In this document: piece by piece, positions 21,365 through 22,674 of the stretch
Layout: each line of letters opens with the position of its first letter
Position numbering within the stretch: position 1 is the first letter of the stretch
Source of the DNA: an uncultured Solirubrobacterales bacterium
GTDB lineage: Bacteria > Actinomycetota > Thermoleophilia > Solirubrobacterales > 70-9
Length of the DNA: 64,000 bases
Reading direction: 5' to 3'
Assembly (NCBI GenBank): GCA_963812905.1
Contig: CAWEWY010000003.1
Span: forward strand, 1,527,470-1,591,469
Notes under the pieces: generated by a model
Database searches by the model: none
What the model was told of the DNA's origin: nothing
What the model saw: the letters and a program-made list of their open reading frames with translations, nothing else
Program-made: the position numbers and the translations under genes

Positions 21365-21438
21365 TGCCCCGAGCTGGATTCGAACCAGCGGCCTACTCCT
21401 TAGGAGGGAGTCGCTCTATCCAGCTGAGCTATCGGGGC
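21365..21438 (-). tRNA. tRNA-Arg (anticodon CCT)
   Basis: GCCCCGATAGCTCAGCTGGATAGAGCGACTCCCTCCTAAGGAGTAGGCCGCTGGTTCGAATCCAGCTCGGGGCA folds as a cloverleaf by hand: 7-bp acceptor stem, D-arm GCTC/GAGC, anticodon loop CTCCTAA, T-arm GCTGG-TTCGAAT-CCAGC. Confidence 0.85.
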
Positions 21439-21441
21439 GGG

Positions 21442-22674
21442 CTACCGGAAAAGGCTCTGTTGAGCCGTTTCCAGCGATTGTGAGTCGTCCGCGCTCGGCT
21501 CAGATTCGACAGAAACAGGCTCTCCGCTGCCCATTGCTGCCCATTGGAGGGCTGCATCGAACTCGCGAAGCGCCACGCCGATCAGCCTCTCGCGGCGGCG
21601 CACAGCACTAGCGTAGACCTTCATCGAGAACCCCGGCTCGGTGTGCCCGAGCTGGTTCGCCACGTACACGGGGTCGTCGCCCAGGGCGAAGCGCAGGCTC
21701 GCGTAGAGGCGACGTAGCGAGTGCGGTGTCACGGCTTCGTCAATGGGCCGAAGGCCCAGCTCATCGAGCCTCTTGTTGGCCCTGCGGATCGCCGTCTTCA
21801 AGCGCCGCTCGACGTTGCTCACGCTCTGCCGCTGTCCCTCGCGGTTGCGAAACATCGGACCCTCGCTGCTGCGCAGCGTGCGGAGCTTGTAGGCGGCGAG
21901 TTCCTTGCGCAGGGCGTCGGGGAGATCGACCTGGCGGATGCCCGCCTCGGTCTTCGATTCGCCAACGGTGAGCGTCCCGCTGGCCGGATCGAAGTCGGGC
22001 CAGTCAAGGCCGCAGGTCTCGCCGTTGCGCAGGCCGGCCCCCGCCATCGTGGCGACCATCGGCCGGAGCTTGCGCGCAGCTTCGAGGAGGGAGGGCAGTT
22101 GCTCTGGCTCGACGGTCGGCCGGTTCGGCGTGCTGCGCTTGACCCGCCGCCGTCTTCCGCGTGCCGGATTGCGCGCCGCGTCGATGTGCCCGTAATCGCC
22201 GGCGTCGTCGAGGATCATCGCCAGCAAGCCGAGCGACTTGTTGATCTGGTTCGGCCCAAGCGCTCCCTCGCGCAGCTTCGCGGCCTTGTAGCGGTCCACG
22301 TCCTCCGGCCCGATCTGGTCAAGGTGCATCGAGGCGAAGTGGGGGAGTAGATGCCCGCTCAGCAGCCAGCGGTAGCTCTTGACGGTCTTCTCCCGCAACT
22401 CCGGCTCGCGGCCCTCAAGCCATTCCGAGGCGAACTCATGGAAGGTCGGCGCTTCGGCAACCTGCGGGGTCTGCGCTGGTTCGTACGGCCGCCATAGGCC
22501 GCGCTCAACGTCCGCCAGGACGTGCCGCAACTCTGCCTCGGCCCGCTTGCGGTTCCAGCCCTCCTCGGCAGTCCCGAGAGCCACATAGCGCCGCTCGCCG
22601 TAGGCGCGGAACCGGATCGCCCAGGCGCGCCCGTCCTGCGGCTCGATCACCTGCCCTGTCGCTTTGCGAGGCAT
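21442..22674 (-). CDS. int: Tyrosine recombinase / phage-type integrase
   Basis: C-terminal catalytic region …VTPHSLRRLYASL…LGHTEPGFSMKVYAS…; the stop codon is 3 nt from the tRNA 5' end. Confidence 0.9.
   Translation of the reverse strand: MPRKATGQVIEPQDGRAWAIRFRAYGERRYVALGTAEEGWNRKRAEAELRHVLADVERGLWRPYEPAQTPQVAEAPTFHEFASEWLEGREPELREKTVKSYRWLLSGHLLPHFASMHLDQIGPEDVDRYKAAKLREGALGPNQINKSLGLLAMILDDAGDYGHIDAARNPARGRRRRVKRSTPNRPTVEPEQLPSLLEAARKLRPMVATMAGAGLRNGETCGLDWPDFDPASGTLTVGESKTEAGIRQVDLPDALRKELAAYKLRTLRSSEGPMFRNREGQRQSVSNVERRLKTAIRRANKRLDELGLRPIDEAVTPHSLRRLYASLRFALGDDPVYVANQLGHTEPGFSMKVYASAVRRRERLIGVALREFDAALQWAAMGSGEPVSVESEPSADDSQSLETAQQSLFR

What the first reader, a model, noticed from the sequence alone, without database searches (positions are those of the whole stretch)
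21398..21444. att core corresponds to the 5' half of the tRNA, with the island upstream of the tRNA gene
All three direct repeats reproduce tRNA nt 1-~41 (acceptor 5' strand through the anticodon loop), not the usual anticodon-to-3'-end segment. The island lies on the 5' side of the tRNA, and the int stop codon is only 3 nt from tRNA nt 1. The functional tRNA must therefore use an element-borne promoter, or read-through from int, while the ancestral 5' half and promoter were displaced ~8 kb to the outermost repeat. Integration with a 5'-half core is uncommon.
Basis: partly seen in the sequence, partly recalled or inferred. Interest (0 to 1): 0.55.

Follow-up and report, generated by a model that had tools for sequence, protein, structure and literature searches.

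The report
Reverse-oriented island at tRNA-Arg gene
A small mobile island has inserted into a tRNA-Arg gene in the uncommon "backwards" way: it supplies a new front half of the tRNA and pushes the original front half and its promoter 8 kb away. This arrangement is real and rare, but it is already a documented class.

Summary
tRNA-Arg(CCT) lies at 21365-21438 on the minus strand. Its nt 1-39 recur exactly at 27423, 28455 and 29490, which makes four copies rather than three. The 3' half is unique. The stop codon of a tyrosine integrase lies 3 nt from tRNA nt 1.

Related Solirubrobacterales genomes with an unoccupied site show that the outermost copy, with its TACGAT -10 box, is the ancestral 5' half and promoter.

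The array has three parts: a 6-kb integrase element and two 1-kb integrase-less units. Each unit carries a toxin-antitoxin-like gene pair and its own -10-like box.

A TGGGCAGC motif sits about 100 nt from every core. These look like arm-type integrase sites, which ties the repeats to recombination.

All integrases at least 69% identical sit the same way next to tRNA-Arg(CCT). Relatives of 52-62% identity do so at other tRNAs. Most at or below 51% sit in the conventional orientation.

In 18 of 38 relatives the int ORF runs into the tRNA, so co-transcription followed by RNase P processing is the likeliest source of the tRNA. An internal promoter remains possible.

Islands with a 5' tDNA fragment are known: 159 of 3919 in Islander, and Zhao & Williams 2002. 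This is therefore a new member of a known, rare kind, with some interesting variant features.

The parts
21365..21438 (-). Intact tRNA-Arg(CCT). The 3' half (21365-21399) comes from the host. The 5' half (21400-21438) comes from the element.
   Evidence: ARAGORN. Rfam RF00005 at 71.6 bits. The 3' half is unique. In occupied sites of other genomes the 3' halves differ by 0-5 nt while the 5' halves are identical.
21400..21438 (-). att core copy 1, equal to tRNA nt 1-39. It ends at the 3' edge of the anticodon loop.
21442..22674 (-). Tyrosine integrase, 410 aa. The stop codon is 3 nt from tRNA nt 1.
   Evidence: Pfam PF00589, PF14659 and PF22022. Alignment to XerA 5hxy covers the Arg, HxxR and LGH motifs. 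There are 2043 homologues.
21444..21475 (-). Conserved 13-bp imperfect palindrome inside the last codons of int (ETAQQSLF). It is not a terminator. It may be a protein-binding site or a stabilising hairpin.
   Evidence: Fold. Conserved in all relatives. In 18 of 38 relatives the ORF continues past it into the tRNA.
21526..21543 (-). Tandem pair of TGGGCAGC in the P' arm, 88-105 nt upstream of tRNA nt 1 and inside int. These are candidate arm-type Int-binding sites.
   Evidence: Present in 34 of 34 int-type arms. Lies in the zone where synonymous variation is suppressed.
21610..21615 (-). TACGCT hexamer within GGTCTACGCT, overlapping the catalytic Tyr codon. It is a candidate internal promoter -10, 171 nt upstream of the tRNA.
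   Evidence: Resembles the native GCTCTACGAT/GCTCTACGCT boxes. Invariant in 9 of 9 sequences. Three independent int truncations keep 189-233 nt and so retain it. This assignment is an inference.
22681..23067 (-). ORF directly upstream of int. Putative excisionase or DNA-binding protein, assigned by position only.
   Evidence: No Pfam hit. This assignment is an inference.
23959..24195 (+). XRE-type HTH regulator.
   Evidence: PF01381, E 1e-14.
24315..27230 (.). Low-GC cargo (52-58% GC). It comprises a 671-aa ORF (+) and a 271-aa ORF (-), both of unknown function.
   Evidence: Composition. No Pfam, PADLOC or NCBIfam hit. The 671-aa ORF has 43 homologues, none annotated.
27296..27322 (.). Inverted pair of TGGGCAGC in the P arm of the integrase element, 101-127 nt from core copy 2.
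27423..27461 (-). att core copy 2, a displaced 5' half.
27462..28454 (-). Mini-unit 1. It has a -10-like GACAAT (27472-27477) 10 nt from the core, a 122-aa RelE/ParE-fold protein (27503-27871), an 81-aa partner (27875-28120), and a P arm with a TGGGCAGC inverted pair (28330-28355).
28455..28493 (-). att core copy 3, a displaced 5' half.
28494..29489 (-). Mini-unit 2, 94% identical to unit 1. It has GACAAT at 28504-28509, ORFs at 28536-28904 and 28908-29153, and a TGGGCAGC pair at 29364-29390.
29490..29528 (-). att core copy 4, the ancestral 5' half of the tRNA.
   Evidence: Comparison with unoccupied sites.
29540..29545 (-). Ancestral tRNA promoter -10 (TACGAT), 11 nt upstream of the displaced 5' half. 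It overlaps the end of the NTase gene.
   Evidence: The same box directly precedes the intact tRNA in L005, L013 and L021. Motif statistics.
29549..30234 (-). Resident AbiEii/DUF2204-like nucleotidyltransferase (29549-30025) with a small upstream ORF (30022-30234). In unoccupied sites these are the native upstream neighbours of the tRNA.
   Evidence: Pfam and PADLOC. 68% DNA identity to the cargo of one mini-unit family.

Best explanation
This is a tandem array of site-specific integrative elements in the anticodon loop of the tRNA-Arg(CCT) gene of a Solirubrobacterales chromosome. The elements are inserted in the reverse orientation.

The attP of this element family carries tRNA nt 1-39, directly after the 3' end of int. 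It does not carry the usual anticodon-to-3'-end segment. Recombination in the anticodon loop joins the element-borne 5' half to the host 3' half, so the tRNA sequence is unchanged. The original 5' half and its promoter are moved to the far end of the element.

Three insertions or accretions account for the four cores. The integrase element, 6.0 kb, is nearest the tRNA. Behind it are two 1.03-kb integrase-less units with toxin-antitoxin-like cargo.

The units keep only the P-arm sites. They can probably move only in cis, as passengers when the integrase element excises using an outer core.

Expression of the rebuilt tRNA is inferred, not shown. Where a mini-unit or the native flank abuts the tRNA, a -10 box 8-13 nt upstream drives it. 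Where int abuts it, as in this window, the tRNA is most likely made as the 3' end of an int-containing transcript and released by RNase P. That transcript would start either at the int operon promoter or at a candidate internal promoter about 171 nt upstream.
For: Repeats and gene layout.

Unoccupied sites: L005, L013 and L021 have the intact tRNA directly after the NTase gene and the TACGAT box. This matches window 29529-29600.

Variable occupancy between the same flanks: L001 has one unit, L002 has only an integrase element, and the window has an integrase element plus two units.

Integrase: Pfam and catalytic motifs.

Arm sites: 8 of the window's 12 TGGGCAGC copies lie in att arms, against 3.4 expected for the whole window. 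Across loci, 34 of 40 displaced cores have the motif 80-129 nt away on the anticodon side, against 0 of 66 tRNA 3' flanks. All 34 int-type arms carry the tandem pair.

Clade property: every integrase at least 69% identical lies next to and co-oriented with tRNA-Arg(CCT), and only 5'-half copies lie on the element (upstream) side. Relatives of 52-62% identity are co-oriented with tRNA-Arg(CCT), Arg(TCT), Val(TAC), Cys(GCA) or Met(CAT). L159 (48%) has tRNA-Ala nt 1-38 repeated 6.6 kb upstream. Most relatives at or below 51% face the tRNA 3' end.

Crossover: 5'-type identity ends at nt 39-41. Orphan 3' halves from conventional islands at the same gene start at nt 30-32. The overlap is the anticodon loop.

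The identity block ends at tRNA nt 1, well beyond what strand exchange needs. This argues for selection to rebuild a working tRNA.

Expression: 68 of 73 non-int flanks have a -10-like hexamer 8-13 nt from nt 1, against a 6% background. None of 35 int-type flanks do. The int ORF overlaps the tRNA by 1-39 nt in 18 of 38 relatives, so int transcripts must enter the tRNA. No terminator-like site lies between int and the tRNA. Synonymous variation collapses in the last 65 codons of int. Three independent truncations of int retain 189-233 nt.
Against: There is no direct evidence of excision. No attP junction or circular form was found. The conserved int 3'-end sequence has no match in IMG/VR.

There are no transcript data, so the promoter of the int-proximal tRNA is inferred only. 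The simple sigma-70 scan found nothing in 21300-23400. That scan also missed the -10-only boxes of the units, so it is not informative for this organism.

The low synonymous variation and the retained int remnants can be explained by arm sites alone, without a promoter.

The differences between cores used to bound the crossover could be mutations that arose after integration.

The two units may be an in-situ duplication rather than two insertions.

The NJ tree has no support values.
Confidence: 0.85

Rival explanations
1. The tRNA is driven by a dedicated promoter inside the 3' end of int: TACGCT at 21610-21615, about 171 nt upstream. It does not depend on read-through from the int operon promoter. 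The tRNA would then be made constitutively even when int is repressed.
For: The hexamer and its context (GGTCTACGCT) match the native and unit -10 boxes. It is invariant, and it is followed by codons that appear rare for this genome and are conserved. Synonymous heterozygosity is 0.12 in codons 346-360. Three independent int truncations end 189-233 nt upstream of the tRNA, just beyond it.
Against: It overlaps the catalytic Tyr codon, so protein constraint explains much of the conservation. There is no recognisable -35. The arm sites at 88-105 nt could explain why the remnants are retained. Only three remnants exist.
Confidence: 0.35
2. The int-proximal tRNA is poorly expressed or silent. Integration in effect knocks down tRNA-Arg(CCT). 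The cell tolerates this because another tRNA-Arg (UCU) can read the rare AGG codon.
For: No -10-like box lies at the usual distance in 0 of 35 int-type flanks. AGG is rare in host-like ORFs, at 2.5 per 1000 codons.
Against: attP carries the full 5' half exactly to nt 1 in all relatives. That is unnecessary if the tRNA did not matter. The mini-units all bring a -10 box. The int ORF overlaps or abuts the tRNA on the same strand with no terminator between, so some transcription must enter it. The tRNA sequence stays intact in dozens of occupied sites.
Confidence: 0.1
3. The two 1-kb units are not separate insertions. They would be an in-situ tandem duplication, by unequal crossing-over between cores, of a single decayed remnant. 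The units would then be dead leftovers rather than mobilisable elements.
For: The two units are each other's closest relatives: 94% to each other against 87% to L006. They lack int and P' arm sites. The same gene pair occurs as cargo inside a full integrase element in L162.
Against: At least five unit families of about 0.75-1.65 kb recur in different genomes and at different array positions. Each has exact cores, an intact P-arm motif pair and a -10 box at a fixed distance. Random deletion remnants would not all end precisely at a core with a promoter.
Confidence: 0.3
4. The repeats are tRNA pseudogene fragments or chance duplications with no connection to site-specific recombination.
For: None beyond the bare existence of repeats.
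Against: Four exact 39-mers were found where none is expected. All end at the anticodon loop. An integrase abuts the tRNA. Arm motifs are regularly spaced. Related genomes have unoccupied sites.
Confidence: 0.01

Closest known systems
Genomic islands with a displaced 5' tDNA fragment (Islander database, Hudson et al. [quoted passage not shown]
   Same: A tyrosine-integrase island lies upstream of an intact tRNA gene. The displaced cognate 5' fragment sits at the far end in the same orientation. The att site is centred on the anticodon.
   Different: This integrase lineage is uncharacterised: at most 27% identity to any phage integrase and XerA as the best PDB match. int abuts or overlaps the tRNA. 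Integrase-less 1-kb units lie in the same array; they are below Islander's 2-kb limit and fail its one-integrase-per-island rule. I could not read the 2002 paper, so the comparison with it rests on its title and on how PMC6563490 cites it.
Archaeal elements that recombine with the 5'-distal part of tRNA genes (cited in Krupovic et al. 2019, PMC6563490: Krupovic & Bamford 2008; Gaudin 2014; Cossu 2017; CalSub-E1)
   Same: The 5' part of the tRNA is duplicated. The arrangement is acknowledged as much rarer than 3' integration.
   Different: The hosts are archaea and the integrase families differ. No promoter or mini-unit analysis was available for comparison.
CIMEs (cis-mobilisable elements) and ICE-CIME accretion in Streptococcus thermophilus (recalled from memory: Pavlovic 2004; Bellanger 2011; not read here)
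   Same: Integrase-less segments bounded by att sites lie in tandem with an integrase-bearing element at one attachment site. They are potentially co-excised using an outer att site.
   Different: The units here are tiny, about 0.9-1 kb. They carry only toxin-antitoxin-like pairs. Each also carries a promoter-like box for the target tRNA. Mobilisation is untested.
Conventional anticodon-loop tRNA integration (Williams 2002 class; examples include P22, HP1, pSAM2 and VWB at tRNA-Arg(AGG); recalled from memory)
   Same: The sublocation is the same, with crossover in the 7-nt anticodon loop. The integrase lies next to the rebuilt tRNA, and the rebuilt tRNA sequence is identical to the original.
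   Different: The opposite half of the tRNA is carried, so the element must also provide transcription. The same tRNA-Arg(CCT) gene also carries conventional 3'-side islands in other genomes (L017, L049, L060, L086).
tRNA-dependent lysogeny of mycobacteriophages (Guerrero-Bustamante & Hatfull 2024, PMC10865867)
   Same: A tyrosine integrase targets an actinobacterial tRNA gene in a non-standard way.
   Different: In that system the core is about 10 bp, the tRNA is destroyed, and a phage-borne tRNA gene complements the loss. Here the tRNA is rebuilt exactly.
Integron cassette arrays
   Same: There is an ordered array of small integrase-less units, each with one recombination site. Toxin-antitoxin cargo is frequent, and the integrase sits at one end.
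   Different: The integrase is not an IntI: it scores 26 bits against the integron-integrase model, whose cutoff is 265. There is no attC. The recombination site is a tRNA half with lambda-like arms.

Membership tests
Tyrosine recombinase / phage integrase (PF00589) | Catalytic domain match above the Pfam cutoff. | tested here: met
   PF00589 scored 49.9 bits against a cutoff of 27.1. The SAM-like N-terminal domain PF14659 scored 35.8.
Tyrosine recombinase / phage integrase (PF00589) | Catalytic residues Arg, HxxR, His/Trp and Tyr. | tested here: met
   Alignment to XerA 5hxy pairs AGLRNGE with TGVRVGE, TPHSLRR with TPHVLRH, and LGH with LGH. The Tyr in KVYAS lies beyond the aligned stretch and was read directly from the sequence.
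tDNA-integrated genomic island (Islander criteria, PMC4383910) | An intact tDNA and a cognate end fragment in the same orientation, with an integrase gene between them, and a length of 2-200 kb. | tested here: met
   tRNA at 21365-21438, fragment at 27423-27461, int at 21442-22674, length 6.0 kb. The two 1-kb units fail both the length rule and the integrase rule.
5'-fragment (reverse-orientation) tDNA islands | The displaced fragment is the 5' part of the tRNA and lies upstream of the intact gene. The 3' part is not duplicated. | tested here: met
   Comparison with unoccupied sites.
5'-fragment (reverse-orientation) tDNA islands | The element supplies the transcription signals for the rebuilt tRNA. 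| tested here: inconclusive
   The mini-units carry a -10-like box at 8-13 nt. The integrase element has none there. Co-transcription is inferred from ORF overlap in relatives, and an internal TACGCT is a candidate. No transcript data are available.
Anticodon-loop att sublocation (Williams 2002 / Islander class A) | The identity block is bounded by the anticodon stem-loop, with the crossover in the loop. | tested here: met
   The block ends at nt 39-41. Conventional orphan halves start at nt 30-32. The actual strand-exchange positions cannot be tested with these tools.
Lambda-type attP with arm-type sites | Repeated Int-binding motifs in both arms, away from the core. | tested here: inconclusive
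   TGGGCAGC pairs lie about 90-125 nt from the cores on both sides. The pattern is highly non-random. Binding was not tested.
ICE / AICE | Conjugation or replication genes (FtsK/Tra-like, Rep, relaxase). | tested here: not met
   No such Pfam or NCBIfam hits were found in the 21.4-27.4 kb region.
Prophage | Virion or packaging genes, or presence in viral collections. | tested here: not met
   No structural-gene hits. There are 0 DNA matches in IMG/VR and only one integrase relative there, at 48%.
CIME (cis-mobilisable element) | Flanked by att sites, lacking its own integrase and excisionase, and adjacent to an integrase-bearing element that uses the same att. | tested here: met
   Units at 27462-28454 and 28494-29489. 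Actual mobilisation cannot be tested here.
Integron | IntI-type integrase with attI and attC cassettes. | tested here: not met
   TIGR02249 scored 26 bits against a cutoff of 265. The recombination sites are tRNA halves.
RelE/ParE-superfamily toxin (the 122-aa unit protein) | RelE/ParE fold, with a small upstream partner gene. | tested here: inconclusive
   AF2 model with pLDDT 82. Top Foldseek hits are HigB1, RelE and YoeB/ParE at probability 0.98-0.99, but TM is about 0.5 and E is 7e-3. The upstream 81-aa ORF overlaps in operon fashion. No Pfam hit.

The most novel reading that the evidence does not exclude
The tRNA-Arg(CCT) 5' side in Solirubrobacterales may host an integron-like accretion system. 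A clade of reverse-orientation integrases would build and reshuffle arrays of about 0.9-kb integrase-less cassettes. Each cassette consists only of a P-arm site pair, a toxin-antitoxin-type gene pair, a -10 box and a tRNA 5' half. Whichever cassette lands next to the tRNA takes over its transcription. When the integrase element is proximal, the int mRNA and the tRNA form one precursor. RNase P cleavage would then set, or in overlapping variants remove, the 3' end and stop codon of the int message. That would couple Int production to tRNA processing.
Probability: 0.25. Interest if true: 0.65.

Novelty: new member of a known kind. Interest (0 to 1): 0.42.

Why it matters
Reverse-orientation tRNA integration forces a mobile element to take over transcription of a host tRNA. 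That requirement is probably part of why the arrangement is rare, at about 4% of mapped tDNA islands.

This locus and its roughly 100 relatives give a natural series for studying how the problem is solved. The series includes native flanks, mini-units with their own -10 box, and integrase genes that abut or overlap the tRNA.

The data also show that orientation is a heritable property of an integrase clade that has moved across at least six tRNA identities.

Finally, island finders that require at least 2 kb and one integrase per island miss integrase-less 1-kb passengers in tRNA-linked arrays. The practical value is modest: better island annotation in uncultured Actinomycetota, and a candidate integrase/att pair for genetic tools.

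Tried and rejected
- Sigma-70 and terminator consensus scans around int and around the units found nothing useful. They demand a -35 box, so they are uninformative for -10-only actinobacterial promoters.
- I first read the conserved hairpin and T-run at the int 3' end as a possible terminator. I rejected that because it lies inside the ORF, and in 18 of 38 relatives the ORF continues through it into the tRNA.
- I looked for a decayed fifth 5' half beyond the NTase gene pair and found none. Only the coding part is homologous to a unit family.
- I looked for excised or attP forms. L111 has int followed by a 5' half that then diverges, but what follows is not a P arm, so it is a deletion. There was no IMG/VR match.
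- I tested whether island genes are enriched in AGG codons, which could explain capture of this tRNA. The excess is modest, 6-21 against 2.5 per 1000 codons on few codons, and I did not pursue it.
- The cargo ORFs of 671 aa and 271 aa have no family assignment in Pfam, PADLOC or NCBIfam, and their homologues are unannotated.
- Zhao & Williams 2002 and Williams 2002 are not held in the paper library. They are cited only through PMC6563490 and PMC1635311.
- The source genome could not be named from the 100%-identical protein record.
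Full report
**Observation**

ARAGORN finds one tRNA in the window, tRNA-Arg(CCT) at 21365-21438 on the minus strand. Rfam confirms it at 71.6 bits.

The plus-strand block 21400-21438 is the reverse complement of tRNA nt 1-39, from acceptor nt 1 to the last base of the anticodon loop. It recurs without mismatch at 27423-27461, 28455-28493 and 29490-29528. Shuffled sequence gives none.

Identity with the tRNA runs on to nt 40 in the 28455 copy and to nt 41 in the 29490 copy. 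It also runs 2-4 nt upstream of nt 1 in two copies.

The 3' half (21365-21399) has no second copy, even with 3 mismatches allowed.

A 410-aa ORF at 21442-22674 on the minus strand ends with TAG, 3 nt from tRNA nt 1. It is a tyrosine recombinase: PF00589, PF14659 and PF22022 match, and the Arg, HxxR and His motifs align to XerA.

**Anatomy**

Reading away from the tRNA, the locus is ordered as follows.

1. Core 1, inside the tRNA.
2. A 5,984-bp element. It carries int, an adjacent upstream ORF, an XRE-type HTH gene, and two ORFs of unknown function (671 and 271 aa) in a stretch whose GC falls from about 70% to 52-58%.
3. Core 2.
4. A 993-bp unit.
5. Core 3.
6. A 996-bp unit, 94% identical to the first.
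7. Core 4.
8. An AbiEii/DUF2204-like nucleotidyltransferase gene with a small partner ORF.

Each unit carries an 81-aa ORF and a 122-aa ORF on the tRNA strand. The 122-aa protein has 268 homologues with no Pfam domain. Its AlphaFold model (pLDDT 82) best matches HigB, RelE, YoeB and ParE toxins, at probability 0.98-0.99 and TM about 0.5. The units therefore look like toxin-antitoxin cassettes, with moderate confidence.

**Which side is ancestral**

The gene left of the tRNA (DUF480, 20668-21336) retrieved 80 loci, all but three recorded as Solirubrobacterales MAGs.

In L005, L013 and L021 a single intact tRNA-Arg(CCT) is directly preceded by ...CTCGATGC..GCCGATAGCTCTACGAT... This is the end of the nucleotidyltransferase gene. 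It is the same sequence that follows the window's outermost core at 29529-29600. These genomes are unoccupied on the 5' side.

The outermost copy is therefore the original 5' half with its -10-like TACGAT, 11 nt upstream. It now sits 8,090 nt from the rebuilt gene.

Between the same two flanks, L001 has one 888-bp unit, L002 has only a 4.7-kb integrase element, and the window has an integrase element plus two units. These are independent insertion histories at one site.

In occupied sites of other hosts the tRNA 3' half differs from the window's by 0-5 nt, while the 5' half is identical. This is expected if the 5' half travels with the element.

**Link to recombination**

The octamer TGGGCAGC occurs 12 times in the window, against 3.4 expected. 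Eight of those lie in att arms:

- a tandem pair at 21526-21543, inside int and 88-105 nt from tRNA nt 1;
- an inverted pair about 100-127 nt from each of the three displaced cores, on the anticodon side.

Across all loci the pattern holds:

- 34 of 40 displaced cores have the motif within 250 nt on the anticodon side, all between about 80 and 130 nt from the core, and 30 of them have an inverted pair;
- none of 66 chromosomal 3' flanks of intact tRNAs have it;
- all 34 int-type upstream arms have the tandem pair;
- only 3 of 72 native or unit upstream arms have any copy.

I read these as arm-type Int-binding sites. That is an inference, because binding was not tested.

Their position inside int fits the fall in synonymous codon diversity. 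It drops from 0.3-0.45 over most of the gene to 0.04-0.21 in the last 65 codons.

The mini-units have the P-arm pair but no P' pair. They probably cannot form a complete attP on their own. Excision between the tRNA-proximal core and an outer core would carry them along and would create a complete attP. This is the CIME/accretion logic.

**Crossover site**

The 5'-type identity ends at nt 39-41.

Several relatives (L003, L010, L017, L049, L060, L086) carry, on the other side of the same gene, an orphan copy running from the anticodon loop to the 3' end. Its identity starts at nt 30-32.

The two kinds of repeat overlap only in the anticodon loop (CTCCTAA, nt 33-39). Both kinds of element therefore exchange strands there.

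Sporadic differences between distal and proximal cores lie at nt 1-30, plus one at nt 39. These are compatible with that position but could be later mutations.

**Orientation is a property of the integrase clade**

A metagenome scan with int returned 80 loci.

- Every integrase at least 69% identical whose downstream DNA is intact lies immediately upstream of tRNA-Arg(CCT) on the same strand. Extra 5' halves lie upstream wherever the contig is long enough, and no 3'-half copy lies on the element side.
- Relatives of 52-62% identity are co-oriented with tRNA-Arg(CCT), Arg(TCT), Val(TAC), Cys(GCA) or Met(CAT).
- L159 (48%) has tRNA-Ala(TGC) nt 1-38 repeated 6.6 kb upstream.
- Most relatives at or below 51% instead face the 3' end of a tRNA, which is the conventional arrangement. 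One example is L153, with tRNA-Val nt 30-73 repeated.

A neighbour-joining tree without support values places the co-oriented integrases in one clade, with L159 apart from it.

**How the rebuilt tRNA is expressed**

This part is inferred.

Among 73 distinct native or mini-unit flanks, 68 have a hexamer with A at position 2, T at position 6 and at least 3 of 6 matches to TATAAT, ending 8-13 nt before tRNA nt 1. Fifty-six of them have at least 4 of 6 matches. The hexamers are TACGAT, GACAAT, GAGAAT, GAAAAT, TACGCT and TACCCT. The background rate is 5.9% for at least 3 of 6 and 0.9% for at least 4 of 6.

The window's units carry GACAAT 10 nt from their cores. These flanks fall into families, so the 73 are not fully independent.

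None of 35 int-type flanks has such a box.

In this integrase family the stop codon lies in one of these positions:

- 3 nt before tRNA nt 1, as in the window;
- directly abutting it;
- 1, 10, 23 or 39 nt inside the tRNA. The extreme case uses the TAA of the anticodon loop.

The last group accounts for 18 of 38 cases. Any complete int message must therefore extend into the tRNA gene.

The conserved 13-bp palindrome at 21444-21475 lies inside the ORF, so it cannot be a terminator. No terminator-like site was found there.

I conclude that the tRNA next to int is most probably made as the 3' part of an int-containing transcript and released by RNase P.

An internal start is a serious alternative. 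GGTCTACGCT at 21606-21615, which overlaps the catalytic Tyr codon, resembles the native GCTCTACGAT and GCTCTACGCT boxes. It is invariant in 9 of 9 sequences. Three independent truncations of int (L035, L028, L022) keep 189, 225 and 233 nt, ending just beyond it. Protein constraint and the arm sites could explain the same facts.

**Mini-units elsewhere**

Nineteen integrase-less segments of 750-1650 bp, bounded by cores, were found in 12 loci plus the window. They fall into at least five families that recur in different genomes and at different array positions.

Their cargo includes:

- the RelE-like gene pair;
- a HEPN protein;
- an AbiEii-like nucleotidyltransferase with a small partner;
- a retropepsin-like protease with a DUF5678-like partner.

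The nucleotidyltransferase family is 68% identical at DNA level to the window's resident gene pair at 29559-30150. No fifth core lies beyond that pair.

In L162 the RelE-like pair is cargo inside a 4.5-kb integrase element.

**Comparison with what is known**

Recombination with the 5' part of a tRNA gene is documented but uncommon.

- Islander lists 159 islands with a 5' tDNA fragment against 3760 with a 3' fragment, and 2083 anticodon-centred sites (PMC4383910).
- Krupovic et al. 2019 call it "considerably less frequent" and cite Zhao & Williams 2002 together with archaeal cases (PMC6563490).
- tRNA-dependent lysogeny (PMC10865867) is a different departure from the norm, because there the tRNA is not rebuilt.

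The integrase has no close characterised relative. Identity to any phage integrase is at most 27%. Only one 48% relative occurs in IMG/VR.

The element has no conjugation, replication or virion genes that I could detect. It meets the criteria for a tDNA island of the 5'-fragment class. It does not meet those for an ICE/AICE, a prophage or an integron.

**Verdict**

It belongs to a known, rare class, so it is a new member of a known kind rather than a new kind.

Four features lift it above routine:

- the clade-wide orientation switch;
- the abutment or overlap of int and the tRNA;
- the regular arm motif;
- the arrays of promoter-bearing toxin-antitoxin mini-units, which standard island finders would miss.

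The main limits are these. There is no evidence of excision and there are no transcript data. All relatives are metagenome assemblies. Promoter calls rest on -10-like motifs only.

Noticed in passing
window 27462-28454 and 28494-29489; L001, L006, L011, L022, L035, L036, L071, L086, L092, L102, L104, L109, L124: Integrase-less units of 0.75-1.65 kb are bounded by tRNA 5'-half cores. They fall into at least five recurring families with toxin-antitoxin-like cargo: RelE-like, HEPN, AbiEii-like NTase, and Asp-protease with DUF5678. Each unit has a -10-like box 8-13 nt from the core.
   Followed up: yes
window 21526-21543, 27296-27322, 28330-28355, 29364-29390: TGGGCAGC pairs lie about 90-127 nt from every core. 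The pair inside int is tandem and encodes WAAMGSG. The pairs in the P arms are inverted. They are candidate arm-type Int sites and are absent from the tRNA-upstream ends of the mini-units.
   Followed up: yes
L011, L104, L127 (overlap 10 nt); L089, L090, L093, L097, L100, L112, L120 (23 nt); L085, L086, L088, L102, L109 (39 nt): In many relatives the int ORF ends inside the tRNA gene. The stop codons used are TAG at tRNA nt 8-10 or nt 21-23, or the TAA of the anticodon loop. RNase P cleavage of a co-transcript would remove the stop codon from such int messages.
   Followed up: partly
L003:14098, L010:12263, L017:1408, L049:9026, L060:10667, L086:15175: Orphan copies running from the anticodon loop to the 3' end of the same tRNA lie on its 3' side, often right next to the DUF480 gene. 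In the five DUF480-scan loci read they are preceded by a conserved GCTTGACAAA motif. They are conventional-orientation island remnants. The L060 and L086 segments carry ThiF/E1-like, JAB, Fic and ImmA/IrrE-plus-HTH genes but no integrase.
   Followed up: partly
window 29549-30234: The resident AbiEii/DUF2204-like NTase with its small ORF is the native upstream neighbour of the tRNA. It is 68% identical at DNA level to the cargo of one mini-unit family. It may be an anciently fixed unit or the source of that family. No decayed core lies beyond it.
   Followed up: partly
window 29546-29555 (minus strand): A 10-nt copy of tRNA nt 3-12 (CCGATAGCTC) sits just upstream of the ancestral -10 box. It is also present in L005. 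Other relatives have CCATTAGCTC there. Its significance is unknown.
   Followed up: no
window 24315-27230: The low-GC cargo pair of 671 aa and 271 aa has no hit in Pfam, PADLOC or NCBIfam. The 671-aa protein has 43 unannotated homologues, and the two genes recur together on short Logan contigs. It could be an uncharacterised defence or accessory module.
   Followed up: partly
L124:9875-10765: An ORF fuses the first 40 or so residues of the RelE-like unit protein to integrase residues from about 160 onward. This indicates a deletion that joined a mini-unit to an integrase element across an att site.
   Followed up: no
L051-L077 (about 25 loci): Hosts whose tRNA-Arg(CCT) has the variant anticodon stem (ATCCC/GGGAT) all show a single tRNA with no extra 5' halves. 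A window-type 5' half would mispair with their 3' half. Compatibility between the tRNA halves may therefore limit host range, although phylogeny could also explain the pattern.
   Followed up: no
L017:2828-2902; L094:11669-11744; L123:1057-1132: A second, sequence-divergent tRNA-Arg(CCT) gene lies near rearranged att sites. In L094 and L123 only 6 nt of the usual tRNA follow int. An integrase-fragment remnant and the divergent tRNA come next.
   Followed up: no
window island ORFs compared with host-like ORFs: The AGG codon, read by this tRNA, occurs at 2.5 per 1000 codons in host-like ORFs. It occurs at 6-21 per 1000 in several island ORFs. The counts are small.
   Followed up: partly
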